Virus record (IMG/VR): IMGVR_UViG_3300020576_003687
Reading direction: 5' to 3' (one strand)
DNA length: 20,000 nucleotides
DNA from: an uncultured virus (IMG/VR IMGVR_UViG_3300020576_003687)
Taxonomy: Duplodnaviria; Heunggongvirae; Uroviricota; Caudoviricetes
The translations under genes and the position numbers were made by a program. Of the stretch, positions 4,856 through 18,826 are shown one piece after another. The notes below the pieces were generated by a model. The model was not told the origin of the DNA. It did no database searches and saw nothing but the letters and a program-made list of their open reading frames with translations. Every line of letters starts with the position of its first letter. The stretch's first letter is position 1.

Positions 4856-5980
4856 ATGAAAGACTATTACGGTATTTTAGGGGTCTCTGAGGGAGCAACG
4901 GATGAGGAGATCAAAAAGGCTTATCGCTCATTGGCGATGAAGTATCATCCTGACCGTAATCAAGGCGATTCGACTTCAGAAGAAAAGTTCAAAGAAGTAA
5001 CTGAAGCTTATGATGTTCTTTCAGACCCTAAGAAGAAACAGAAGTACGATCATTACAAGAACAGAGGCGGACCTGATATAAACTTCAATAGCGATGCCCC
5101 TGATTTTCAAGGGTCCGTACATGACGTATTCAGGGACTTCTTTAGAAGCCAAAATCATCATAACTCGGCGCAGGGAAGAGATACGTTTTGTGATATTTCC
5201 TGCTCATTTGAAGACTCTATTCATGGAGTCAAGAAGAGTGTTAGCTTTTCTACAACAGAGGTTTGCGGTTCTTGCAATGGCGAGGGAGTTAAAGCGGGAG
5301 CCAAGAAAGACAAATGCAAAAAGTGTCGAGGTTCGGGTCGTATAGTCATGAATCATGTTATGGGACAGAACCAGGTTATGCAGATGGTTTCGTCATGCGA
5401 TGAATGCCAGGGTTCTGGCGTTTCCATTAATGATAGTGATTTATGTAAAGATTGTATTGGCGGTTTGAATGAAAAGCATATTAGGGTAGACGTAGATATT
5501 CCGCCTAAGTTTGTTTACGGTACTGCTCTTAGAGTTGCGGGACAAGGTTATCATTCTTCTCCTAAAGGTAGAAAAGGTGATTGCTATATCAGAGTTCATC
5601 CAGAAGAACATGAACTTTTTGATATGACAACAAGCTATGATCTTGTTATTGAAGCATACATAACGATGTCAGAAGCTATTCTTGGCACCACAATAGAGAT
5701 ACCGATTCCTGAGGGAGGCTCTGAAAGGATAATAATTCCTTCGGGAGTTTCTACTAATGACAAATTCGTAGTTCATGGTAAAGGTCTTTATAGAAAAGGC
5801 GGTCGAGGCAATATAATTGTCGTTGTCGTTGTTGAAACAGTGGCTAATACCGCAGAAGTCAAAAAGATAGCGACTAAGCTTGCTGTTGAAGAAACGGTCG
5901 ATAACACTCCAAGAACTCATGAGTTCAAGAAGACTGTATCGAAGTATCTCAAAAAGGAGAAGAAAAATGCCAAAGTCTGA
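4856..5980 (+). CDS. dnaJ: DnaJ (Hsp40) co-chaperone, class A architecture
   Basis: J-domain KDYYGILGV...YHPDRN...[14 protein letters not shown]; Zn repeats [32 protein letters not shown]-terminal GDCYIRV and [11 protein letters not shown]. Confidence 0.95.
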
Positions 5981-7970: not shown

Positions 7971-8673
7971 TATACCCTCAACAAGAGGACAGAAAGAGAT
8001 TATCGACGGTAAGACGGTCGATATGCATGGCGTTCATAGCAACGATAGCTTTTTGGAAGCTGCGCTTTTGAAGGCAGGAAAAGGCGAGGCCGTTAGTGCT
8101 GACGAGGGCGTAGAAGACCATGACATAACCGAGGGCGAGGTTGAGAAGGACGACGAGTTTGTAATTGACAAGAACGGATGCCATCTTGATAAAGACTCTT
8201 TGCTTTCGAGTATAAGTTCTTTTGCTTCTGTTCCTCAAATGAAAATGTCGGTAAGTAAGGGGAAGGCAACCAAAGCCGCAAAAGCGGATTTTGGTATTTA
8301 CAATCCGATTCTCGAAGAACTTGTAAAGATACCCCTTTCTCAAGAAACATATGAAGCAGATATGGAAATCCTAAGAGGAGCCATAAGAACTGCTGCTAAA
8401 GAACTAAAAGTTAGAAGAATTGTTGCCAATACGAAAGCGATTGCTAAGAATGCACAAAACTTCTATCAAAGCGAAGAAGGTATGAGGGTTGTTTTTAGCA
8501 TACTCGGTAATAAGTTCTCTATGGCGGTCAAGGGAGAGCTTACGGGTATGGAAGCCTTCTATATTCAGGTTAATGGTGACAGTTTAGAGGGTATAGTATT
8601 ACAGAAGTCTCCAGATGGAGATTTTGCTGACGCTACAGAAAACTTTGATATTCAAATCAAAAAGGTGAACTAA
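7963..8673 (+). CDS. Hypothetical protein (about 236 aa), acidic N-terminal half; start revised to 7963
   Basis: SD AGGAGG at 7950-7955 is spaced 7 nt from ATG 7963 but only 1 nt from ATG 7957; overlaps the resolvase stop. Confidence 0.7.
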   Translation: MADIPSTRGQKEIIDGKTVDMHGVHSNDSFLEAALLKAGKGEAVSADEGVEDHDITEGEVEKDDEFVIDKNGCHLDKDSLLSSISSFASVPQMKMSVSKGKATKAAKADFGIYNPILEELVKIPLSQETYEADMEILRGAIRTAAKELKVRRIVANTKAIAKNAQNFYQSEEGMRVVFSILGNKFSMAVKGELTGMEAFYIQVNGDSLEGIVLQKSPDGDFADATENFDIQIKKVN

Positions 8674-9071
8674 TGTGGTATAAGAAGAGCCAGCAAATGT
8701 TTGACGAGGATCAATCTTTCAAGATTGATAACTTTTCTGACAGAAATCTTGTTAATTCAAGAATTGAATCCTTGACAGGCATCGCTGATATGCTTGATTA
8801 TTGCGCAAGGTTAGTTTATCAAACACAAAGAGGAGCAAGAGGTGTTGTTGCCGAGTTGAGGGCTAATAAGAAGATTTCATCATTTCCGATTGTTATGGAG
8901 CTTTTGGAACAAGCTGATAAAGTTGCAATGGATTCTCCTTCAAAGTTTGCCGATCTTTGTAAAGAGGCTGCAATAGAACTTGACAGAAGAATCTCTAAGC
9001 TTGTAGAACTTAGGGAAGAGTTCTCAGACGGCCCTAAAGACTACATCAAGCCTAAAAAAGGTTTGTTCTAA
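8673..9071 (+). CDS. Hypothetical helical protein beginning MWYKKSQ (132 aa)
   Basis: TAATG stop/start overlap with the upstream gene; no known domain recognised. Confidence 0.72.
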   Translation: MWYKKSQQMFDEDQSFKIDNFSDRNLVNSRIESLTGIADMLDYCARLVYQTQRGARGVVAELRANKKISSFPIVMELLEQADKVAMDSPSKFADLCKEAAIELDRRISKLVELREEFSDGPKDYIKPKKGLF

Positions 9072-9083
9072 TAGGAGAAAGCT

Positions 9084-9752
9084 GTGGCTGAAGACAAAGA
9101 CATACAAAAAGCAGAAACAAAAGCTCTTGCGAAAGACCCAAGAGAGTATTCTAGCATTATAGATTATGCTAAAGACCTAACATGCCATCCCATAGTCAAA
9201 ACAAACTGCAAACTCTGTAATTCAATCTATAGAACAGAAGCTGAAGAAATGTTTGCTGAAGGCAAGAATCCTCATTATGTTTATAAGTGGTTGAAGAGTA
9301 AGAAAGAGGATATTTCTGATAAAGCTGTTCATAATCATTTTGTTCAGCATTATCAGAAACCAATGATAGAAGCCAGAATAAAGGCTTATGCGGAAAACTT
9401 AGAAGACTATTCTAAAATCAAGATGCAAGACGAAGATCGTCTAAGGCTTTATTCATCTTTGCTTGATCAGCAAATACATATGCTTGCATCTGCGATTCAT
9501 CAAACAAATCCTGAGGAAATGAGAAAGAGTCATGAGACTCTAATAAAGCTTATTGATCAGGCGACTAAGGTTCAAGAGCGAATTAAGGCATTGCAATCAG
9601 AAAATGAACCAGTTAAGATATTGATTGAAAGGCTCAATAACGTTATGACAATCAAATGGAATGATGCGAAAAGTCCAGAGGCTAAGCAAGCCATACAGGA
9701 TATTCTAGATGTAGTAGTTAAGGAAACGGAGACATTGAATGTCACTAAATGA
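9084..9752 (+). CDS. Hypothetical CxxC...HxxxH zinc-binding / HTH-like protein with coiled-coil C-terminus
   Basis: GTG start with SD AGGAGA; CKLC (9207-9218) and HNHFVQH (9330-9350) bracket a helical segment; heptad-like C-terminal half. Confidence 0.65.
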   Translation: MAEDKDIQKAETKALAKDPREYSSIIDYAKDLTCHPIVKTNCKLCNSIYRTEAEEMFAEGKNPHYVYKWLKSKKEDISDKAVHNHFVQHYQKPMIEARIKAYAENLEDYSKIKMQDEDRLRLYSSLLDQQIHMLASAIHQTNPEEMRKSHETLIKLIDQATKVQERIKALQSENEPVKILIERLNNVMTIKWNDAKSPEAKQAIQDILDVVVKETETLNVTK

Positions 9753-9966
9753 TATCATACAGAAGAAAAGATTGTTTCAGAAGATTGGTCTTGGAACCCC
9801 GCAGATGAAACCAGCAACAGTAGTTTCTCAATCTCAAACTCCACCAAGTCAACCAAACCAGCCAAAAACATCCCCTCCACCAGCGGCTCCTCCGTCGCCT
9901 CAGACTACTCCTGCTCCAAAGCCTGCTAAACCTGGTTGCGGAGGGTGTAGGAGAAAGAGGTCTTAA
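9739..9966 (+). CDS. Small Pro/Gln/Ser-rich protein with C-terminal GCGGCRRKRS
   Basis: Fills the gap between flanking genes with a 14-nt overlap upstream and a 2-nt gap downstream; GGAG upstream of the ATG; low-complexity PQ linker. Confidence 0.62.
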   Translation: MSLNDIIQKKRLFQKIGLGTPQMKPATVVSQSQTPPSQPNQPKTSPPPAAPPSPQTTPAPKPAKPGCGGCRRKRS

Positions 9967-9968
9967 CA

Positions 9969-12656
9969 ATGGATTTCGAAACGATCATCAAAGACACGAT
10001 TACGGTTTATCAGCAGAATTGCGGTCAGAAGTTGACTGAAGATCTTGCTAAGGATATAATTCGCGCTCTTCTCTCTGTTAGAGATACAGAAAGAATTTTG
10101 CAGGTTTCTCCAAGACATTTATTACAGGTCGTTTTCGAGAATAAGGAGTTTTATGGCAAGTCGGTTTATCCATGCGATATCGTTCAACTTCGTAGGATAC
10201 TAGAGACAAAGAGAGTTACCGCTCCTTCTAGCATTCTATTGTTCTCCAATGCCGCTTCTGACAGAATTTTCAAAGAACAGAAATGCAGATTGTTCTTGTC
10301 GTTAGACCCGAACAAAATTGCAGAAAAGAATGGCTGCGAAGTCAAAACTTATGGTGGTCTTGCGATTTTTGATTCCAATGAACTCGATATAACAGATGCG
10401 ATTAACTGCATCGTTGTTGAGGGAGGCGGGTATGAAAATGTTCGAGTAGTTGAAACAATCTCCAAAGAGAGCAACATTGGATGTCCTGTCTATACGACTT
10501 CTTTCATACCTGGTATAGACAAGTATAAGTTCGCAAGAACGATGCACTTGTTTGAGGTTGATATCCCTTCTCTTGGTATTCATAAAGAGAAGTGTAGGTC
10601 TATTAGCCCAATGCAGGCTTTGCAAGACGTATTATCAATAAGATGGGACAGGCATCCTGATAGCAAAGTTTATAAGAGAAGACCAGAGAGATATATAGCA
10701 GAATATTGGGCTAACTCTGGATTTTTTGACAGCATAGTTCGACATATTGGACGCAAAAAAGAAGCAGCAGCAATGCCTCAAATTAATCTAACTCCTCAAG
10801 AGCAAACAATCTTTGCAACCCTCATGGATATCAATACAAAGATGTCTTTGGGTATTACTTTCAGAGTTGCGGGCGGCTGGGTTCGAGATAAACTTCTTGG
10901 AACTCCAAGCGACGATATTGATATTGCTCTTGATAAAATGACTGGACAACAGTTTGTCAATAAGGCCATCGAATACACAAAGATGGTCCCAGGTTCTCCC
11001 ATTAAAGTTGACTCTGCATATGTTGTAAAGCAGAATGTTGAGAAGTCGAAGCATCTTGAAACAACCGCTCTTGACATTGGTGGTTTGAAGATTGATTTCG
11101 TTAACCTTAGAGACGAGAGTTATGGCGATTCTCGTATTCCGACAATGACTCTTTCTGACGATCCAAAGGTTGACGCACTAAGGCGAGATTTAACAATCAA
11201 TGCCATGTTTTATAATGTCAATACTGGTCAGGTTGAGGATTATGTTGGAGGTCTAAAAGATCTTCAATCTATGGTTCTCAGGACGCCTCTTGATCCGAAA
11301 AAGACATTCATGGATGACCCCTTAAGGATGCTTAGGGTTTTCCGCTTCTATAGTCGTTATCCAAACGCAAACATTGACGAGGGGACTCTTAATGCAATGA
11401 GAGATCCTGAGGTCCATAACGCCTACAGAAGTAAGGTTGCTCCTGAGAGGGCTGGTCCTGAAATCATTAAGATGTTTGGCGCAGAAAGGCCTGCGGCTGC
11501 TATCCGAGCCATGTTTGCAACAGGGCTTGACGCTGCTATTTTTGACGCAGAAGAAACAAGGAACCTGCTTCCTCTTAACATGGACCAAAGGAATAGGCAT
11601 CACAAGTTCAATCTTCTTGAGCATACTTTGAGGGTTGTCGAAAATCTTGACAAACTCATGAAGCAGAAAAATGTTTCCAAGAAAGATCGAATCAACATGC
11701 TTATGGCTGCGGTCTTTCATGATTATGGTAAGGCTCATCCTGAAATTGGAAAGCCAAAAGAGCATGATCCAGGCGAATACACCTATGTTGGTCATGAGGA
11801 TAAGTCTGCTGATATAGCTGACGCCATCATGAAGAGAATTGGTATTGGTGAAGACGACCGTAAGTTTGTCAATGTTGTTGTTCGTCAACATATGAGGCCT
11901 CACACTGACTCTTGGACTAACAAATCCATTGGTAAGTTTATGCGTGATACGCAAATCCCAGGTAGCGACCGAAAGGATCTCTGGGAGTTTGTTATGATGC
12001 ATGCTCAAGCAGATACAATGGCAAAGTCTGAGGAAGGCGATCAGGCTGACTTTGACCTAAAAGGTCAACATGCCGAGCAAATGAGAGAATACCTGAATAG
12101 GCCTGTTCCAATTCAGATGAAGCCGCTTGTTGACGGCAACCGTTTACAACAGATGTTTCCTACTCTAACTCCTAAGCCGCCAAAGGGATTGCCCTCTTTC
12201 ATTAAGTATATTCAAGACAAGCTTCTTGAAGAGCAGCTTGGCGGTAATATCGCGGACGAACAGCAAGCAATTGCATTTGTTGAGTCTATGCGAATGGAGA
12301 TAGAGAATATGTATGGTCCAAAAAAAGCTCAAGGTTGGTATAATAGAGTAAAAGAGGCAGACGCAAGTTCTGCTTCTGAATTTGGCACTGGCGGTAGATT
12401 GCCTGGTGAAGGTTCGCCTTCAGAATGGGAAGGCGTTAAGTCGATGATTTATAGAGAGCCTGGCTCTTCTTCAATGGTTGCTGTTGGAGATAGATTTAGA
12501 AGTAAGTCTTCAGGTATTGCTTTTGAAGCAAGTCAAGAAGAATCTTTTAGAGTTGTTTCAAAATCTGATGGATATGTTGTTCTGGAAGATTCAAATGGCA
12601 AAAAGAAAAGAGTTGAAGTTGGCATAGAGCTTCCTGGCAAGTATGTAAAGGTCTGA
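9969..12656 (+). CDS. cca: Class II tRNA nucleotidyltransferase (CCA-adding/poly(A) polymerase family) with HD domain and extra N- and C-terminal modules
   Basis: Motif A RVAGGWVRDKLLG...DDIDI (10863-10925), SKHLET, IDFVNLRDESY, DALRRDLTINAMFYN, FMDDPLRMLRVFRF, APER; HD domain EHTLRVV...AAVFHDYGK (HD at 11718-11723)...GHEDKSA...QHMRPH. Catalytic core starts near M269 (10773). Confidence 0.9.
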   Translation: MDFETIIKDTITVYQQNCGQKLTEDLAKDIIRALLSVRDTERILQVSPRHLLQVVFENKEFYGKSVYPCDIVQLRRILETKRVTAPSSILLFSNAASDRIFKEQKCRLFLSLDPNKIAEKNGCEVKTYGGLAIFDSNELDITDAINCIVVEGGGYENVRVVETISKESNIGCPVYTTSFIPGIDKYKFARTMHLFEVDIPSLGIHKEKCRSISPMQALQDVLSIRWDRHPDSKVYKRRPERYIAEYWANSGFFDSIVRHIGRKKEAAAMPQINLTPQEQTIFATLMDINTKMSLGITFRVAGGWVRDKLLGTPSDDIDIALDKMTGQQFVNKAIEYTKMVPGSPIKVDSAYVVKQNVEKSKHLETTALDIGGLKIDFVNLRDESYGDSRIPTMTLSDDPKVDALRRDLTINAMFYNVNTGQVEDYVGGLKDLQSMVLRTPLDPKKTFMDDPLRMLRVFRFYSRYPNANIDEGTLNAMRDPEVHNAYRSKVAPERAGPEIIKMFGAERPAAAIRAMFATGLDAAIFDAEETRNLLPLNMDQRNRHHKFNLLEHTLRVVENLDKLMKQKNVSKKDRINMLMAAVFHDYGKAHPEIGKPKEHDPGEYTYVGHEDKSADIADAIMKRIGIGEDDRKFVNVVVRQHMRPHTDSWTNKSIGKFMRDTQIPGSDRKDLWEFVMMHAQADTMAKSEEGDQADFDLKGQHAEQMREYLNRPVPIQMKPLVDGNRLQQMFPTLTPKPPKGLPSFIKYIQDKLLEEQLGGNIADEQQAIAFVESMRMEIENMYGPKKAQGWYNRVKEADASSASEFGTGGRLPGEGSPSEWEGVKSMIYREPGSSSMVAVGDRFRSKSSGIAFEASQEESFRVVSKSDGYVVLEDSNGKKKRVEVGIELPGKYVKV

Positions 12657-12663
12657 AAATAGA

Positions 12664-15600
12664 ATGGCTCAATCATATGTATCAAACATAAACTTTCGAG
12701 AACAAAGGTTTATTGGTTCTTCAATGACCTATGACGGAGTTCCCGTTGACGTACCAGCGCCTGGCCCCTTTCTTTCGAATATATCAATCTCGTCTCAGGT
12801 TCCGAATCCTGAAACGAGTGTTTGTACAATGACGGTTGTTGGCGTTCCTGGACAAGACCCTGACGGCACTATTTATAGCGGTCAGTTTAGAGTTAAAAGA
12901 AACGTTTCAACAGGAAACCCTGTTATTACCGTTTCAGGAACTGGTCTTACAAATTCTCAGCTTTCCATTATTAGAAGTTCAATCTTTTTGGTTGAAACGC
13001 CAGCTTCAAATGGTATTGATGACATTGCGACTTTTACGGTAAATCTAACTCCTATTGCAAGTTCTGGCATAAGAGAGTTTACTGTAAACATACCATTCGA
13101 AGATTCAAACTTAGATGTTCCAAGCAATAACATCGTAATACCGTTCTTGAATTTTGACGGAAGTAATGCTCCTCCTTCAAGTTTTCCAAATCCAATCATT
13201 GTTTCAGTTGATAATGGCGAGTTATCCATTAATGCTGGCAATATAAGGCAGACTGTTCCTGCTATTTCAATACAGAGAAACTGGCCAACTTCTAGAAACG
13301 TAGTTTCAGCATCAGTTTCTTATAACAATGTAAGTCCTCCTGATTATACTTTGCGTCTTGATGTTTATGAAGACTTTACAAATCAAGAAGGTATAAGAAT
13401 TGTTCCTGCAAATCTAACTCCGTTACCGTCAACAGATGGAACGATAACTACAGACCTAAACCTTAATATGTCGGTCTCTGCTGGTTTATGGAGGCTTCCA
13501 TCGGGTTCCGCTGGTGGCGGCGCTATTCCTTATAGAGAATCAAGCATATACAGAAGACTTAAGTATTCTTTGCAATATGGTATTGCAAGATATGCTAGCG
13601 GAGTTTTACAGTCTGGTGAAATGTTTCGATATACCATTTACGCAGCTACATCTGTAAAACTTGATTCTTTGGTTACAGGAACTGGAAATAATCGTAAAGT
13701 CAATATGTATTACAACTGTAACGATTCCGGTGCAGTTGCTCGAAGACCTTTTAATCTTCAAAATCAAACCGGAAGTGTTTTTGTATCTGTTACTCTAAAT
13801 ATAGATAGAACAAATTCCTTAAATAACTATTTTGAACTTGTTGGCTATCATAATGGTCCAGCAACTTTTAGATATGAAGATTTTTCGAATGACATGACTG
13901 TTAAGGATTTTGTTGCAGAAGTAAGAAGTCGATTGCTGGCCCAATACCCATTATGGCATAATGGACTTTCTTTCAATATTACAACCATATATCAATACGG
14001 CAGAATGGGAGATGTTAGATCTGAATCTGTTACAGATTTGGCTTCTGCTCCAAATACTCCAAATTCCGTTGTTTTTGTACTTGAACCAGAAGATGCAAAT
14101 GCTTCTTTATTTCAAAGAGAATTTGTCCCTCATGATTTAGTAACAGACCCATCTAATCCTGTAAGAAAAACGTTTAGAGAGTTTGAGCAATGGCTTATAC
14201 AATCATTTGGTAGCTATGGCCTTGTTATAGAATGGTCAATCCCAAACGTACCTGAATGGAGAGATCTTGCTTTAATTCCGTTTGGTCTTTCTCTTGTAGA
14301 TACATATGTTACTTTGGCTCAAAATAGAATTCAATATGGTCATACTATAAATTCTAATCCTAAATGCCTGCTTGATATATCTTCTGATAGCACTCATTAT
14401 TCACAGTATAATACAGGATTGCTATTACAAGGAATTCCTATAATAGTTAATACGCAAATTAATGCAACAATTCAACAAGTTGCAACGGACATTGCAAATC
14501 AAATTAATGCGGTTATAGCAAATCCAAGCGTTAGATATTCTTATCCATCTTATATATCATTTCCGCCAAGATTACAAGTAAATTGTTCTATTCCTGCATC
14601 TATGTATGCAAATTTATCAGCCGCAAATCTTATTGCTCCGCAAACGCCAAATGGCAGTGATGTACCTGTATCTGTTTTTGGTTATGGCCCCAATCCTCCT
14701 ATTTGGTCTAGATACTTTAGAATTCCAAGTTCTTTACAAATTCTAACTGGACTTTCAACCGGACATTCAATTGCGAATACTTTTTCCAATTTTAAGCTAA
14801 CTGGTAATAGTTCTATTAGTGTACAAGTTCAAGCGGATGCGTTTAGGACACTGGGTGATTTTGTAAATCTAATAAACTCTAATGCTTCAAATTACATATC
14901 AGCTTCTCTTGTTGATTCGAACTATGGTAATTCTATTATATTGCTAAATTCATTTCCTATTAGTTCTTGGAATATAGTAACTCAAGGCAATATAAATATG
15001 AATGCTCAAACTGAAATACCTCTTATTAGAAGGTATCAATTATCTCAGCATTTTACCCTTGTTTCCTTGGTTAATGCTATTCAAAACGATTGGGCTTCTA
15101 ATATTGATGTAAGCGTAAATATCACAACAAATCAACATTCAGACGCTAGGCCTTTAAGACTTATTTCTCCATTTACAACAGGAGATATAAGGACTAACCC
15201 TCTTCCAAAAACGCTAAATGGAACTGTAACTAATATCTCGAATGTTCTAATACCAACAGAAGACGTAACAATTTCTTATAATATTGCTTTCGCAAATAAT
15301 GGAGGCCCAGGCGGTCCTCCTGGCGGAACCATAACAAGCGGCATACAGGTTGCTCTTGGCGGATATGAAAAAGACGGCGTTTTCTATCCTTATAATGCTC
15401 CGAATGCTTTCTTTGAGCCTGTTTACAATACTGTTTTCCCAATTAACTTTACAACGATAGACGCTGATGTTGTTTATCTTCTAGTTAAGAGTAGAACGAC
15501 CGAAGATTCAGTAACAACATATACTTCAACTGCTTCTTGTTATTCTGGCTTAGTAAGGTATAGCAATGGTTATAATCCATATTCTATAAATGCATTTGTG

Positions 15601-16896
15601 CCTACTGATTCTAAGTTTACAAGCGTTTGGACAGAACAGGGGCTTGGAGTTCCTGTTACAATATCAGTCCCTGTTTATTCAACGCTTATGGATGTAACAA
15701 TTGAGGATTCATGTATTCTCGATTCAATAACATTGAAAATAACAAACAAGCCAGCAGAGCTTGATCAGTTTGGCTTCTTGGCAGTGAATCGAACCAATAA
15801 TACGAAGTCTCAAACAGAATCTAAGGTTGCAAGAGTCTTTGGTCTTGTTCTTGACAATAGGGGATCTTGGGACGTTCTTATTTCTCCAGAAGCCACTCTT
15901 ACTCTTGATCCTTCAGGGACAATTCCTCATCTTGGTTCTTACTACAATAGAAATGTATTTGACGACGACGAAGGTTACGATTTCAGCATTACTACCAATC
16001 TCCCGTCAGAAGTTTCAAATGCAATATCTTTGATTCCTGTTCCTGGAAATCCTCAAGTTTGGATTCTAAGAATTGAGCATGCGGTCAAGAGGTATCTTGC
16101 TTCATTGTTGGCGCAAAATGACGACGAAGAATCATTGGTTGGATGCTATTTGAATGTTGATATTCTTGTCAAGGGTAGAACGACTGAGGTTGAAGGCACA
16201 GCGAGAGTAACTATTTATCATGATTACACTTGCGTTTATGATATTGGTCTTTGTGATTTCTTCTGGAATCTTATTGACCCTCCAAAGCCAACTGGACCAG
16301 AGATTATTCAGAACAGAATTGAAGTGGCTTATGAAACGCTTGTTGATTGTTCAAACTTGACAACGCCTATAAACTACAACATAGCAGTTAATGCGCCTAT
16401 ACTTATTACGGCAACAAACATTCCAACATTCAAAAATGGCAATGCGTTGTTACTTATCAAGTCGAGCTATACTCCTGAGGTTCAAGGGTTTTACTTTCCA
16501 GTTGGTAATCAACTTGATGTTCTTCAGTTTGCTTCTTGTTCTAGTTTGAATTCGAACTTGCCATTGATGCAAAGGCTCAATAGAGAGTTCTTACTTCTCC
16601 CTGATAGAACATCTCCAATTACTGACATTTTCGAGATTAGAAATCTATTGAACTCAGAAAGTTCGTATTTGTATGTCAAGCCGCAGTTTAGTTTCCCTCC
16701 AGACGATAATATCAAAGACTGTAGCAATAACGAGATTGTTGTTGTTGGTATTGGGTACACCTTTAAGAATTGGGTGAATGGCGTTAGAGAAGACGATGTG
16801 GTTATTGGATTGAACCTTCTCTTCCCTCAGGGTCTATTTACCTCTCCAGAAATTGATATCTGTTATCGCTACTATTACAATCAGAAGGAAACTTAA
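12664..16896 (+). CDS. Large (1410 aa) Ser/Thr/Asn/Pro/Val-rich beta-rich protein, putative virion structural/adhesion protein
   Basis: 4.2-kb uninterrupted ORF; Lys-poor composition unlike the cytoplasmic genes upstream; no signal peptide evident; degenerate internal T-L-x-D-[FL]-V-x-x-I-N repeats. Function is inference. Confidence 0.6.
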   Translation: MAQSYVSNINFREQRFIGSSMTYDGVPVDVPAPGPFLSNISISSQVPNPETSVCTMTVVGVPGQDPDGTIYSGQFRVKRNVSTGNPVITVSGTGLTNSQLSIIRSSIFLVETPASNGIDDIATFTVNLTPIASSGIREFTVNIPFEDSNLDVPSNNIVIPFLNFDGSNAPPSSFPNPIIVSVDNGELSINAGNIRQTVPAISIQRNWPTSRNVVSASVSYNNVSPPDYTLRLDVYEDFTNQEGIRIVPANLTPLPSTDGTITTDLNLNMSVSAGLWRLPSGSAGGGAIPYRESSIYRRLKYSLQYGIARYASGVLQSGEMFRYTIYAATSVKLDSLVTGTGNNRKVNMYYNCNDSGAVARRPFNLQNQTGSVFVSVTLNIDRTNSLNNYFELVGYHNGPATFRYEDFSNDMTVKDFVAEVRSRLLAQYPLWHNGLSFNITTIYQYGRMGDVRSESVTDLASAPNTPNSVVFVLEPEDANASLFQREFVPHDLVTDPSNPVRKTFREFEQWLIQSFGSYGLVIEWSIPNVPEWRDLALIPFGLSLVDTYVTLAQNRIQYGHTINSNPKCLLDISSDSTHYSQYNTGLLLQGIPIIVNTQINATIQQVATDIANQINAVIANPSVRYSYPSYISFPPRLQVNCSIPASMYANLSAANLIAPQTPNGSDVPVSVFGYGPNPPIWSRYFRIPSSLQILTGLSTGHSIANTFSNFKLTGNSSISVQVQADAFRTLGDFVNLINSNASNYISASLVDSNYGNSIILLNSFPISSWNIVTQGNINMNAQTEIPLIRRYQLSQHFTLVSLVNAIQNDWASNIDVSVNITTNQHSDARPLRLISPFTTGDIRTNPLPKTLNGTVTNISNVLIPTEDVTISYNIAFANNGGPGGPPGGTITSGIQVALGGYEKDGVFYPYNAPNAFFEPVYNTVFPINFTTIDADVVYLLVKSRTTEDSVTTYTSTASCYSGLVRYSNGYNPYSINAFVPTDSKFTSVWTEQGLGVPVTISVPVYSTLMDVTIEDSCILDSITLKITNKPAELDQFGFLAVNRTNNTKSQTESKVARVFGLVLDNRGSWDVLISPEATLTLDPSGTIPHLGSYYNRNVFDDDEGYDFSITTNLPSEVSNAISLIPVPGNPQVWILRIEHAVKRYLASLLAQNDDEESLVGCYLNVDILVKGRTTEVEGTARVTIYHDYTCVYDIGLCDFFWNLIDPPKPTGPEIIQNRIEVAYETLVDCSNLTTPINYNIAVNAPILITATNIPTFKNGNALLLIKSSYTPEVQGFYFPVGNQLDVLQFASCSSLNSNLPLMQRLNREFLLLPDRTSPITDIFEIRNLLNSESSYLYVKPQFSFPPDDNIKDCSNNEIVVVGIGYTFKNWVNGVREDDVVIGLNLLFPQGLFTSPEIDICYRYYYNQKET

Positions 16897-16906
16897 GGAC
16901 TAAAGA

Positions 16907-18826
16907 ATGCCTGGTGAATCAATTGGAAAAAGAAAATGGTGGCATTGTATTCTTAATATCAAGGATAGAGAGAGTGGCGATACGCTAACGACTATAACGA
17001 GCGTAGACCCAAACGATCCTGCTGATAATGCTAATCCTCGTTCGGTTTTGGCGTATTCTTCTTATTTTGTTGGCTGCTATCCTGTTGAGGTTCCTGTTCG
17101 TTCATTTGACAGGTCTAGATCTCCAGGATACTTTGTTATGATGCCTTCTGTCTCGGCGCTTTCGGATTCAATTGTTGATGTCGAAACCTATCAAGACGCT
17201 ATCAATCTAAATAATAGAAGAATATTCGAGTTCATAAGAACAGCCGGTTATAATGCCAATTGCGAAGCTCAAGTTCCAAATAGATATGATACATTTGCAT
17301 ATGAAACCATAACAAACGATCTTAGCAGCAACGTATTTAGGTATCCGCAAATTCCGTTGTATACTCAAATAGGATGTTGCGAAGTTGAGCTTTCTATTCC
17401 AAGTACGGATCTTCCTCAACCTGGCGTTATTGGAAGAGCAACAAGAATTTGGTATCTTACTAGAGTCATAGATCAAAATACTGGCGAAGCAACATATTCC
17501 TTATATTCTTATGATTTTGCGTTACTTTCTGGCGCGCTAGTTTTTAGAGGCAATATTGATGTTTCAGTATCTCCAAATATTGTATTGTATGATATAACTT
17601 GGATACCTATTGACAATACGCTGCTTGTTTTAACAAATGACGGTATAAGAAGACTTTATCCTGGATCTTTAACTTCAAACGCAAGATTAGGTGAAGTTGC
17701 TACATTTGATAGGGGCGGTCTTGGGCAGAATGTTTGTATTTTCTCTAGCGACAATTCTTGTAGCTTTACTATACCTTCCAATGCTCTTGATGGATATAGT
17801 CCTAAAATTGAATACAATATTTACGATGCTTCTCTGTATCTTTTTCATCCAGTACACACTAATAACCAGTTTGGTATCAATTCTCAACCTGCTTATATTA
17901 GAATGGAATATTCGGAAAGAACGGGAGTTAGGTATTTATCTCACTCTCTTATAAATGCGACTTTTTCTGGATCATATAGTATTGGAGGATTGGCGTACCC
18001 GTCAACTTATTCTTCTTCTTTACAGGCATATTGTATGCTGAATGATTCGTTAGCAAATATAGGCGTTACTGGAGATATAACACCTGTTTCTCCAACTAAT
18101 AATCTCTTTGCAGGACTTGAAACTCTTGCATTTATTGAAGATCCTGACAATACTCTTACTGGACAAGTTCTTTATACAAGCAATCCTGCCGGTCAACTCT
18201 TTAGAGTCAATATAGACGCTGTAACTCCAGTTGATACGGGTTATACTTTGTCTGCCTCTCCGATAGGTTCAACAACAACAATAAACGGAGAAGATACAAG
18301 GGTTTCGCCATTCCCATTTGTTCTTGGTCGTTCTCATTGGTTGTTCTTGGTTGACATTAGTGCTTCTATGTCTGGTCAAAGAATCAGCATGATTATTGAC
18401 GCTTTCAGAGGAATGATGCAGTCTTATGTCAGATATAATGACAAGATTACGATTATTGGATTCAACGATAGAAGCCCGATTAGAATAAGCAAAGAGCTTA
18501 AAACATATTCGGACGCAAATGAAATAATCTCTTATCTTGAAACATTCTTTATACCGTCAGGGGTTTCAACAAACTTCTGTTCTGCTATTTCGAATCTGTA
18601 TACAGAGTTTAATGACTTGAAGAATATTTTCATTCTTTCAGACGGAACGTTTGATGATTGCGGACAAGACGCAAACTTCCCGTTTACTGTTAGAACGAGT
18701 TTTGCTCAGCTACTGTCGGCTAATCCTGGAATGGTTGTTACTTCAGTTGGAGTTATGACCTCATCGCCGCCGCCAGTATTGCAGTATCTTTCAACTCTTT
18801 TTGGTCCTTATGTCGATTGGAGATAA
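16907..18826 (+). CDS. vWA (MIDAS) domain protein with beta-rich, possibly propeller-like middle region
   Basis: WLFLVDISASMSG (DxSxS at 18353-18367), DKITIIGFN, STNF, IFILSDG (D at 18641), VTSVGV; middle region has LYDITW / IGGLAY / LETLAF / GQLFRVN blade-like strings. Confidence 0.8.
   Translation: MPGESIGKRKWWHCILNIKDRESGDTLTTITSVDPNDPADNANPRSVLAYSSYFVGCYPVEVPVRSFDRSRSPGYFVMMPSVSALSDSIVDVETYQDAINLNNRRIFEFIRTAGYNANCEAQVPNRYDTFAYETITNDLSSNVFRYPQIPLYTQIGCCEVELSIPSTDLPQPGVIGRATRIWYLTRVIDQNTGEATYSLYSYDFALLSGALVFRGNIDVSVSPNIVLYDITWIPIDNTLLVLTNDGIRRLYPGSLTSNARLGEVATFDRGGLGQNVCIFSSDNSCSFTIPSNALDGYSPKIEYNIYDASLYLFHPVHTNNQFGINSQPAYIRMEYSERTGVRYLSHSLINATFSGSYSIGGLAYPSTYSSSLQAYCMLNDSLANIGVTGDITPVSPTNNLFAGLETLAFIEDPDNTLTGQVLYTSNPAGQLFRVNIDAVTPVDTGYTLSASPIGSTTTINGEDTRVSPFPFVLGRSHWLFLVDISASMSGQRISMIIDAFRGMMQSYVRYNDKITIIGFNDRSPIRISKELKTYSDANEIISYLETFFIPSGVSTNFCSAISNLYTEFNDLKNIFILSDGTFDDCGQDANFPFTVRTSFAQLLSANPGMVVTSVGVMTSSPPPVLQYLSTLFGPYVDWR

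What the first reader, a model, noticed from the sequence alone, without database searches (positions are those of the whole stretch)
10773..12320. CCA-adding enzyme with a fungal/plant (Cca1)-type catalytic head joined to a bacterial-type HD domain, in a phage-like genome
Seen: the head/neck reads INLTPQEQTIFATL...RVAGGWVRDKLLG...DIDIALD...EKSKHLETT...IDFVNLRDESY..SRIP...DALRRDLTINAMFYNVNTGQVEDY...LRTPLDPKKTFMDDPLRMLR. From my recollection of the family, GGWVRDKLLG, SKHLET, DFVNLR.E.Y..SRIP, NALFYN and RTPL.P..TF.DDPLR are hallmarks of yeast/plant Cca1 (ancestral eukaryotic type), whereas typical bacterial enzymes have GG.VRD.LLG, G..FGT and E.TT.R.E. Downstream it has a complete bacterial-style HD phosphohydrolase (HH...EHT, HDYGK, GHE, HMRPH), which eukaryotic Cca1 lacks as an intact domain. 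Inference: a prokaryotic-virus lineage sister to, or exchanged with, the eukaryotic CCA enzymes. It could repair tRNA 3' ends, e.g. after toxin or defence cleavage, since HD domains remove 2',3'-cyclic phosphates.
Basis: partly seen in the sequence, partly recalled or inferred. Interest (0 to 1): 0.8.

Follow-up and report, generated by a model that had tools for sequence, protein, structure and literature searches.

The report
Huge-phage CCA enzyme, eukaryote-like
A very large bacteriophage encodes a multi-part enzyme for finishing and mending the 3' ends of transfer RNAs, and its catalytic part is the closest non-eukaryotic relative found here of the enzyme used by fungi, plants and protists, which bears on where eukaryotes got that enzyme.

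Summary
It has four parts: an N-terminal ADP-ribosyltransferase-fold domain like Tpt1/KptA/DarT, a class II CCA-adding head and neck, an intact HD phosphohydrolase, and a helical tail ending in a small SH3-like barrel. The head/neck is about 50% identical to eukaryotic "ancestral-type" eCCA (PDB hits 1e-54, against 1e-20 or weaker for other enzymes; about 210 bits, against 90 for Bacteroidota and 74 for other prokaryotes). In an LG+C20 tree, the phage HD-bearing enzymes and eukaryotic eCCA form an exclusive clade (100/99). Eukaryotes nest among the phage lineages in the best tree, but a plain sister relation is not rejected (p-AU 0.17). The protein is not a chimera. Bacteroidota enzymes share the head+HD layout, both halves have Bacteroidota as nearest cellular relatives, and the eukaryotic body aligns collinearly with the phage HD region without its catalytic residues. 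No named cellular prokaryote carried this type. About 40 viral contigs (up to 548 kb) do. A near-identical phage carries 42 tRNA genes, none encoding CCA. Likely role: CCA synthesis on phage tRNAs and 3'-end healing. No activity was tested.

The parts
9969..12656 (+). Whole gene: 895-aa multidomain tRNA nucleotidyltransferase (stop codon included)
   Evidence: A single ORF. A 99%-identical 895-aa copy lies in the 333,623-bp viral record G001. More than 20 metagenomic clusters share the same length and architecture.
9969..10772 (+). N-terminal domain (res 1-268): helical bundle 1-59, ADP-ribosyltransferase-fold core about 60-184, then an alpha/beta part
   Evidence: AF2 model with mean pLDDT 90.4. 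Foldseek best hit is yeast Tpt1 7yw4, E 3.4e-5. VIA: 7yw4 Z 9.8 (105 aa, rmsd 3.2), DarT 7omx Z 9.0, other Tpt1/KptA Z 6-7.6. The domain is homologous in 93 stored proteins by phmmer. R75 is invariant in 33 of 33. No Pfam Tpt1 hit in 0 of 33 members.
10863..11282 (+). Class II nucleotidyltransferase head (res 299-438) with GGWVRD, DxD (D316, D318), SKHLET and RRD
   Evidence: Pfam PF01743 E 1.3e-24. Invariant catalytic residues. Aligns with 9kma and 9ns4.
11373..11543 (+). Neck / RNA-binding region (res 469-525). The DDPLR nucleotide-selection motif lies just upstream, at res 449-453.
   Evidence: Pfam PF12627 E 3.8e-4, 20.6 bits, just under its 22-bit cut-off. The PDB alignments run to residue 525-530.
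11601..12014 (+). HD phosphohydrolase domain (res 545-682): H545, H552, H584-D585, K588, H609, H641, H645, D682
   Evidence: Pfam PF01966 E 2.8e-7 over 550-649. All the listed residues are invariant in 36 of 36 family members. It hits 30 of 30 Bacteroidota CCA enzymes at E<1e-3.
12114..12314 (+). Helical tail (res 716-782) beginning KPLVDG, shared with the short forms of the family
   Evidence: phmmer of residues 720-895 matches the C-termini of the short forms over the first 60-80 residues. AF2 helices with pLDDT 90-97. Aligned with the eukaryotic 'kplldG' tail by hhalign.
12486..12653 (+). C-terminal small beta-barrel (res 840-895) after a low-confidence linker (res 789-839)
   Evidence: AF2: five strands, pLDDT 88-94, linker below 50. 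Foldseek finds only generic SH3-like, CPH and PWWP barrels, best E 0.027.

Best explanation
The gene encodes a phage tRNA 3'-end maturation and repair enzyme built from four modules. The class II head/neck adds C, C and A to tRNAs that lack them. The HD domain is a metal-dependent phosphohydrolase that can clear 2',3'-cyclic or 2'/3'-phosphate ends left by RNases, so that the head has a 3'-OH to extend. The N-terminal Tpt1/KptA/DarT-like domain probably uses NAD+ to remove a 2'-phosphate or otherwise act on a nucleic-acid end. The C-terminal barrel may help bind RNA. Its everyday substrates are most likely the phage's own large set of tRNAs, none of which encodes CCA, with repair of host or phage tRNAs damaged by defence nucleases as a second role. 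In evolutionary terms it belongs to a deep, HD-bearing lineage carried by huge phages. That lineage forms an exclusive clade with the ancestral eukaryotic enzyme (eCCA), and Bacteroidota-type HD-CCA enzymes are the nearest cellular prokaryotic relatives of both halves. What is shown: the domain content, the conserved catalytic residues, the clade, and the CCA-less tRNAs in the near-identical phage. What is inferred: every enzymatic activity, the substrates, and the direction of descent.
For: Domains and catalytic residues. Closeness to eCCA: PDB E 1e-54 against 1e-20 or weaker. Among the best 150 of 1.84 billion representatives, HD-bearing proteins are interleaved with proteins lacking an HD, six of which carry eukaryotic names: Aphanomyces, Cyanophora x2, Spirogloea, an MMETSP transcript and Golovinomyces. 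Head/neck scores from the window: viral HD median 210 bits (38/38), eukaryotes 209 (18/18), Bacteroidota 90 (30/30), other prokaryotes 74 (25/25). Reciprocally, six named eukaryotes score medians of 187-214 against viral HD enzymes and 93-112 against Bacteroidota. Tree (102 rows x 265 columns, LG+C20+F+G4 PMSF): the phage+eukaryote clade has 100/99 support and a stem of 0.75. The 212-row FastTree agrees, with support 100. Phage carriage: 159 relatives in IMG/VR, about 40 of them with the eukaryote-like head (at least 170 bits), all with an HD motif, on contigs up to 548 kb. Window neighbours are a DnaX clamp loader, sigma factor, clamp, DnaJ and RuvC. 24 of 31 neighbours at eight other viral loci hit phage families, including Srd anti-sigma, endonuclease VII and endolysin. 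Not a chimera: 80 of 81 Bacteroidota genomes match the head+HD core at E<=0.001, the best at 30-42% identity across both parts. The HD half hits 30/30 Bacteroidota but 4/25 other prokaryotes, maximum 43 bits. hhalign of phage against eukaryote profiles covers 468 collinear columns at probability 100%. Function context: G001 (99% identical protein) has 42 tRNA genes, 0 of 42 encoding CCA, and a single PolyA_pol gene. Relatives are fused to a 2H-SAK phosphoesterase, and one has a weak Pfam Tpt1 hit. The jumbo-phage review places phage CCA-adding enzymes and KptA-type ARTs among RNA-repair functions (PMC7824862, passages read).
Against: No activity was measured. The N-domain has no sequence-level match to Tpt1 (0 of 33 members at E<=0.05; no PDB sequence hit better than E 0.026). 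Its fold scores (Z 7-10) fall in a range the tool itself calls only moderately specific, and the Tpt1 catalytic tetrad was not mapped. The window has Gln where 28 of 33 relatives have Tyr104. The window's own genome is not held, so the tRNA evidence comes from a relative that shares only 24% of sampled 31-mers. No RtcB was found in G001 (1 of 5 related records has one), and no RNase Z, so a complete repair pathway is not evident. Whether the enzyme adds full CCA, only CC or only A cannot be read from the sequence. Its PDB hits include both 'cca1' and 'cca2'. Heimdallarchaeaceae, Chlorobiota and Rhodothermota sequences, which a 2026 preprint groups with eCCA, could not be added to the tree.
Confidence: 0.72

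Rival explanations
1. Chimera by capture: a phage took a Cca1-type head from a eukaryote, and recombination joined it to the HD half of a bacterial CCA enzyme.
For: The head is about 50% identical to eukaryotic eCCA, while the HD half gives no phmmer hit to eukaryotes (0 of 18). One viral group is the immediate sister of the main eukaryote clade.
Against: The HD half has no close bacterial donor (best 43 bits over 185 aa), and its nearest cellular group, Bacteroidota, is the same as the head's. Head+HD is the normal Bacteroidota layout. The eukaryotic body/tail aligns collinearly with the phage HD and tail. HD-bearing viral lineages branch at the base of the clade. The viral family is itself deep, down to 34-40% identity across the core.
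Confidence: 0.08
2. Hidden cellular owner: the family really belongs to an unsampled or poorly binned cellular lineage (for example Asgard archaea or uncultured bacteria) that is the true sister of eCCA, and phages merely borrowed it.
For: Most family members are unnamed metagenomic proteins, many on short contigs. Atlas clusters near the head are labelled Bacteria for the few members with a record. A 2026 preprint reports Heimdallarchaeaceae CCA2 grouping with eCCA (10.64898/2026.05.29.728689, abstract and sections 8-9 read). Those sequences could not be tested here.
Against: In one genome per 185,579 bacterial and archaeal species, the profile scan kept 80 loci and only two exceeded 35% identity. 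One is a 2-kb contig in a MAG that also has its own CCA gene. The other pairs with a fungal Cca1. All organism-named hits to a basal member are eukaryotes: 12 NCBI-named plus 3 eukprot, and 0 prokaryotes, in 120 rows. The nearest named Atlas cluster to that member is 64% Viruses, commonest Uroviricota. The preprint itself calls direct Heimdall-eukaryote similarity 'weak'.
Confidence: 0.15
3. A different activity: the head is not a full CCA-adding enzyme. It might be an A-adding or CC-adding enzyme, a poly(A) polymerase, or a counter-defence nucleotidyltransferase acting on other RNA ends.
For: Class II enzymes with these motifs include CC-adding enzymes, A-adding enzymes and poly(A) polymerases. 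PDB hits include both 'cca1' and 'cca2'. All 16 NCBIfam matches are far below their cut-offs, e.g. 126 bits against 438.8.
Against: The best relatives are CCA-type enzymes. Only one PolyA_pol gene was found in G001, so a split CC/A pair is not evident, though that record is only 66% complete. The phage has 42 tRNA genes that need all three nucleotides.
Confidence: 0.12

Closest known systems
Ancestral eukaryotic-type CCA-adding enzyme (eCCA; yeast/plant Cca1 type; Betat et al. 2015, PMC4538823, passages read)
   Same: The head/neck is about 45-55% identical and shares GGWVRDKLLG, SDDIDIAL, SKHLET, DFVNLR, RRDLTIN and DDPLR. The whole length is collinear. The two form an exclusive clade with 100/99 support.
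   Different: The phage protein is encoded by a phage of bacteria. It keeps an intact HD active site, which the eukaryotic alignment lacks, and it adds a 268-aa N-terminal ART-fold domain and a C-terminal barrel.
Bacteroidota HD-containing class II CCA enzymes (the 'BCR' group of preprint 10.64898/2026.05.29.728689)
   Same: The same head-neck-HD-tail layout, in open frames of about 470-510 aa. They are the nearest cellular prokaryotic relatives of both halves.
   Different: Only 30-42% identical. The one Bacteroidota enzyme read (L004) has FGT where the phage and eukaryotic enzymes have SKHLET. They form a separate clade.
E. coli multifunctional CCA/phosphohydrolase (cca, b3056) and the usual phage CCA enzymes (e.g. 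Escherichia phage 4MG)
   Same: A class II head plus an HD motif. The known HD phosphatase and cyclic-phosphodiesterase activity (recalled from the literature, not read here) gives the mechanistic model.
   Different: Very distant: 44-46 bits to the head/neck. They served as the outgroup. All 378 matching GenBank phage records are below 60% identity, and the listed ones are at 25-30%.
Tpt1/KptA RNA 2'-phosphotransferase and DarT (ADP-ribosyltransferase fold)
   Same: Residues about 60-184 of the N-domain superpose on the NAD-binding lobe (Z 9.8 and 9.0).
   Different: No sequence-level match. Extra helical and alpha/beta parts are present. The catalytic residues were not mapped. The domain is fused to a CCA enzyme.

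Membership tests
Class II tRNA nucleotidyltransferase (CCA-adding; Pfam PolyA_pol head) | Head domain scoring above the Pfam gathering cut-off | tested here: met
   PF01743, 87.4 bits against a cut-off of 23, residues 299-438
Class II tRNA nucleotidyltransferase (CCA-adding; Pfam PolyA_pol head) | Catalytic motifs: GGxVRD with DxD carboxylates, RRD, and [ED]DxxR (motif definitions recalled) | tested here: met
   G302-G303, D316, D318, R405-R406-D407 and D450-P-L-R453 are invariant in 36 of 36 family members
Class II tRNA nucleotidyltransferase (CCA-adding; Pfam PolyA_pol head) | Template-independent addition of C, C, A to tRNA | not testable with these tools
   Needs an enzyme assay. The only context is 42 CCA-less tRNA genes in the related phage.
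eCCA (ancestral eukaryotic-type CCA-adding enzyme) | Groups with eukaryotic eCCA to the exclusion of bacterial enzymes | tested here: met
   Clade support 100/99. Bit scores about twice those to any prokaryote group.
eCCA (ancestral eukaryotic-type CCA-adding enzyme) | Encoded by a eukaryotic nuclear genome | tested here: not met
   The window and G001 carry a bacterial-type clamp loader, a sigma factor and phage families
eCCA (ancestral eukaryotic-type CCA-adding enzyme) | Body domain without HD catalytic residues | tested here: not met
   The phage protein keeps the H...HD...H...H...D set. The eukaryote profile has no conserved residues at those columns.
Bacterial multifunctional CCA addition/repair protein (NCBIfam NF008137) and actinobacterial CCA (TIGR02692) | Score above the curated family cut-off | tested here: not met
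   94.1 bits against 451, and 126.1 against 438.8. All 16 NCBIfam matches are below their cut-offs.
HD-domain phosphohydrolase | HD domain above the Pfam cut-off with conserved metal ligands | tested here: met
   PF01966, 31.3 bits against a cut-off of 22. H545, H584-D585, H609, H641, H645 and D682 are invariant.
Tpt1/KptA RNA 2'-phosphotransferase | Match to Pfam PF01885 | tested here: not met
   0 of 33 long-form members at E<=0.05. One relative outside that set, P0139, has E 9.3e-4 at 19.7 bits, below the 26-bit cut-off.
Tpt1/KptA RNA 2'-phosphotransferase | ART-fold NAD lobe | tested here: met
   7yw4: Foldseek E 3.4e-5 and VIA Z 9.8. DarT scores nearly as high, Z 9.0.
Tpt1/KptA RNA 2'-phosphotransferase | Catalytic Arg-His-Arg-Arg tetrad (recalled) | tested here: inconclusive
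   R75 is invariant, and R38, S93 and an acidic residue at 167 are conserved in 26-29 of 33. No residue-by-residue mapping to Tpt1 was made.

The most novel reading that the evidence does not exclude
The eukaryotic CCA-adding enzyme (eCCA) descends from an HD-bearing lineage that survives today only in huge phages. On this reading the phage family is the missing link between Bacteroidota-type enzymes and eukaryotes, eukaryotes lost the HD active site, and a virus may have been the vehicle that delivered this core translation enzyme to the eukaryotic stem. The best ML tree has exactly this shape, with HD-bearing viral lineages basal and eukaryotes nested beside one viral group.
Probability: 0.3. 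Interest if true: 0.9.

Novelty: new variant of a known kind. Interest (0 to 1): 0.72.

Why it matters
Where eukaryotes got their class II CCA-adding enzyme is an open question. The most recent work I found is a 2026 preprint that links eCCA to Heimdallarchaeaceae and to Bacteroidota/Chlorobiota/Rhodothermota on what it calls weak similarity. A term search of its main text found no occurrence of 'phage', and its three uses of 'viral' concern gene transfer in general. Its supplements could not be opened and might list viral sequences. Here a large phage-borne family turns out to be about twice as similar to eCCA as any prokaryote sampled. It also still has the HD domain, which gives an intermediate form that can be placed in trees and tested at the bench. 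Separately, the Tpt1-like + CCA + HD fusion is a compact candidate tRNA-end healing machine. It is relevant to phage counter-defence against tRNA-cleaving systems and may be useful as an RNA-end repair reagent.

Tried and rejected
- The window's own assembly is not held, so the related record G001 was used instead.
- A single-sequence scan of cellular genomes found nothing. The profile scan was needed.
- GenBank phages hold only distant relatives.
- The NCLDV capsid family search on five clade-B viral records gave 0 of 5, but the control rang nowhere, so it says nothing.
- The phage tail-sheath family gave one sub-threshold hit in 5 records. Phage identity was argued from neighbouring genes instead.
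- RtcB was found in 1 of 5 records and not in G001. RNase Z was not found in G001. Both records are incomplete.
- The Pfam Tpt1 family was not detected in the N-domain. PDB sequence search of the N-domain gave nothing better than E 0.026.
- The C-terminal barrel got no specific fold assignment.
- The AU test did not reject holding all viral and HD-bearing rows together (p 0.166, delta lnL 18.45). That group was named after seeing the tree. I therefore do not claim that eukaryotes arose within the phage radiation.
- Earlier notes of this scan held nothing.
- Literature searches found no report of a phage-eCCA relationship or of this fusion. The search for 'Swiss Army Knife' + 'RNA repair' + 'CCA-adding' returned 0 papers, and the paper behind the Pfam 2H-SAK name was not seen.
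- Heimdallarchaeaceae sequences could not be obtained with the tools.
Full report
**What is there.** The finding lies inside a single 895-aa ORF, 9969..12656 on the + strand. All the quoted motifs are present. Pfam finds the PolyA_pol head (299-438, E 1.3e-24), an HD domain (550-649, E 2.8e-7) and, just under its cut-off, the RNA-binding neck (469-525). All 16 NCBIfam CCA/PcnB/GlnD models match far below their curated cut-offs, the best at 126 bits against 438.8. The protein is therefore not a member of any curated bacterial equivalog.

**Genome context.** The window is a run of tightly packed + strand genes. They include a DnaX-type clamp loader, a sigma factor, a sliding clamp, a delta-like subunit, a complete DnaJ, an epimerase and a RuvC-like resolvase. 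The window's assembly is not held. The nearest record, G001, is an IMG/VR viral contig of 333,623 bp estimated at 66% complete, and it encodes the same protein at 99% identity. This is a huge phage of bacteria.

**The eukaryote-like head is real.**
- Against all PDB sequences the top three hits are 9kma (E 1.9e-54), 9ns4 'cca2' (3.3e-54) and 9ns2 'cca1' (6.4e-47). The next is 3.6e-20. Human TRNT1 scores 1.3e-11 and 1miv scores 9.5e-10.
- An exhaustive HMMER search of 1.84 billion representatives with residues 269-530 gave 31,226 hits at E<=0.001 and 1,170 at E<=1e-30.
- The 150 best interleave HD-bearing proteins with proteins that lack an HD.
- Of 20 proteins looked up, six carry eukaryotic names: Aphanomyces, Cyanophora x2, Spirogloea, an MMETSP transcript and Golovinomyces. 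Four carry only a generic enzyme name and ten have no name.
- Using a basal family member (P0234) as query, every organism-named hit in the 120 rows is eukaryotic: 12 NCBI-named dictyostelids and fungi plus 3 eukprot entries. No named prokaryote appears.

**Who carries the HD-bearing form.**
- A word-indexed search listed 120 clusters, nearly all with PolyA_pol and most with HD. They fall into a short form (about 510-590 aa) and a long form (about 800-950 aa) with the N-terminal extension.
- In IMG/VR, 159 stretches encode relatives. About 40 of the 80 kept loci have the eukaryote-like head (at least 170 bits), all with an HD motif, on contigs up to 548 kb.
- At eight such loci, 24 of 31 neighbouring proteins hit phage families, including a DnaQ-like exonuclease, endonuclease VII, Srd anti-sigma/sigma-70 decoy, endolysin and homing endonucleases.
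- In one genome for each of 185,579 bacterial and archaeal species, the profile scan found 576 relatives. Among the 80 kept, only two exceed 35% identity. One is a 2-kb contig in a Verrucomicrobia MAG that also has its own, ordinary CCA gene. The other is the end of an 18-kb 'Tabrizicola' MAG contig whose gene pairs with the Golovinomyces Cca1 in the tree, so it is probably a fungal fragment.
- GenBank phages hold only distant relatives. All 378 matching records are below 60% identity, and those listed are at 25-30%.

**Phylogeny.**
- Data set. I extracted the head/neck from 212 proteins, none dropped for length. FastTree put all eukaryote-like heads in one clade of 152 with support 100.
- Careful analysis. 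I chose a balanced subset of 102 rows: the window, 25 viral loci, 34 metagenomic proteins, 6 named eukaryotes, 22 unnamed HD-less proteins, 10 Bacteroidota and 12 other prokaryotes or phages. The rest were left out for run time. It ran under LG+C20+F+G4 (PMSF) with 265 columns, rooted on E. coli Cca and phage 4MG.
- Main result. An 80-row clade of phage, metagenomic and eukaryotic enzymes has 100/99 support and a stem of 0.75, apart from Bacteroidota (85/64) and the others.
- Inside the clade. HD-bearing viral lineages (L138/L148; L140/P0234/P0182/P0252) lie at the base. The window sits in a 27-row viral/HD clade (95/92). An 18-row viral/HD clade (100/90) is sister to the 27-row main eukaryote clade (98/95). 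Aphanomyces branches just outside that pair.
- Limit. Eukaryotes nest among phage lineages in the best tree. Forcing all 51 viral/HD rows together costs only 18.45 lnL and is not rejected (p-AU 0.166; group defined after seeing the tree).
- Bit scores tell the same story without a tree. From the window: viral 210, eukaryote 209, Bacteroidota 90, other prokaryotes 74 (medians). From six named eukaryotes: 187-214 to viral HD enzymes and 93-112 to Bacteroidota.

**Not a chimera.**
- 80 of 81 sampled Bacteroidota genomes match the core at E<=0.001. The best matches run across head and HD at 30-42% identity.
- The window's HD half hits 30 of 30 Bacteroidota (median 24 bits, maximum 43) but only 4 of 25 other prokaryotes, so it has no close donor.
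- Profile-profile alignment of 36 phage cores against 25 eukaryotic proteins is collinear over 468 columns (probability 100%) through the HD region to a shared KPLxDG tail. The eukaryotic consensus has no conserved residues at the phage H...HD...H...H...D positions. That stretch is weakly similar and is held in register by strong flanks.
- The simplest reading is joint descent of head+HD from a Bacteroidota-like ancestor, with the HD active site lost in eukaryotes.

**The extra domains.**
- N-domain fold. Residues 1-268 fold with mean pLDDT 90.4. Foldseek's only hit below E 0.001 is yeast Tpt1 (7yw4, 3.4e-5), followed by archaeal and human Tpt1/KptA and DarT. VIA gives 7yw4 Z 9.8 (105 aa), DarT Z 9.0 and other Tpt1/KptA Z 6-7.6, all over residues about 30/60-184. 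This is the ADP-ribosyltransferase fold.
- N-domain sequence. There is no sequence-level support in the window. One relative has a sub-threshold Pfam Tpt1 hit, and others carry 2H-SAK phosphoesterase, DnaJ or peptidase fusions.
- N-domain conserved residues. R75 is invariant. S93 is conserved in 26 of 33, an acidic residue at 167 in 28 of 33, and Tyr at 104 in 28 of 33 (the window has Gln).
- C-terminus. It consists of the family's helical tail, a disordered linker and a small five-stranded SH3-like barrel with no specific match.

**Function.** G001 carries 42 tRNA genes within its first 30 kb. None encodes CCA, and all 42 are followed directly by TT. The window has no tRNA genes. Only one PolyA_pol gene was found in G001. 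The most likely everyday job is therefore CCA synthesis on the phage's own tRNAs. The HD domain and the Tpt1-like module would then heal phosphate-blocked 3' ends before CCA is rebuilt. This is the role the jumbo-phage review assigns to phage CCA enzymes and KptA-type ARTs (PMC7824862, passages). All activities are inferred.

**Literature.**
- Betat et al. 2015 (passages) defined eCCA. A term search of its main text found no occurrence of 'phage' or 'HD domain'.
- The 2026 preprint by Cassidy et al. (abstract, sections 8-9 and term search) groups eCCA with Heimdallarchaeaceae and Bacteroidota/Chlorobiota/Rhodothermota. Its main text has 0 occurrences of 'phage' and 'HD domain'. Its supplements could not be opened.
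- Al-Shayeb et al. 2020 only lists CCA-adding enzymes among huge-phage translation genes (figure legends).
- The Acanthamoeba paper's main text has no occurrence of 'phage' or 'HD domain'.
- Six searches found no report of the phage-eCCA link or of this fusion.

**Verdict.** The 'joined' (chimera) reading is replaced by ancestral retention of the HD domain. The protein is a new variant of a known kind of enzyme, and its phylogenetic position is interesting.

Noticed in passing
G001 (L202-L203), record positions 50-29439: 42 tRNA genes, all on one strand. 0 of 42 encode CCA, and 42 of 42 are followed immediately by TT after the discriminator base, which may be a 3'-processing signal. One tRNA has a CUA anticodon (amber-suppressor type; ARAGORN calls it Pyl), hinting at TAG recoding.
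   Followed up: partly
L136, L137, L160 (IMG/VR loci): The CCA/HD module sits inside stop-to-stop frames of 2021, 2635 and 2375 aa, with the head starting at residue 1066-1334. These are either giant fusion proteins or a sign of another genetic code.
   Followed up: no
window 8673-9071 and many short-form family members: The 132-aa ORF upstream begins MWYKK. Many unrelated-length family members begin MNWYK(K) or similar (P0160, P0166, P0154, P0141). A shared N-terminal tag of unknown meaning.
   Followed up: no
window 9739-9966: A 75-aa ORF directly upstream of the gene is proline-rich (PPSQPNQPKTSPPPAAPPSPQTTPAPKPAKP) and ends CGGCRRKRS. It has no family hit.
   Followed up: no
window 12664-16896 and 16907-18826: A 1410-aa protein with no Pfam or PHROG hit lies directly downstream, followed by a 639-aa protein with a C-terminal von Willebrand A domain.
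   Followed up: no
window 4856-5980: The phage encodes a complete DnaJ (J domain, zinc-finger centre and C-terminal domain). One family relative (P0145) has a DnaJ domain fused to its CCA/HD enzyme.
   Followed up: no
L002 and L003 (genome contigs): Two public MAGs (Verrucomicrobia, Tabrizicola) contain short contigs with this gene type that look mis-binned. One is phage-like. The other pairs with a powdery-mildew fungal Cca1.
   Followed up: partly
P0169, P0277-P0294 and others (metagenomic relatives): A subfamily of about 650-690 aa fuses the eukaryote-like head + HD to a C-terminal 2H-SAK phosphoesterase (PF22547). This is a second RNA-end-healing fusion in the same clade.
   Followed up: no
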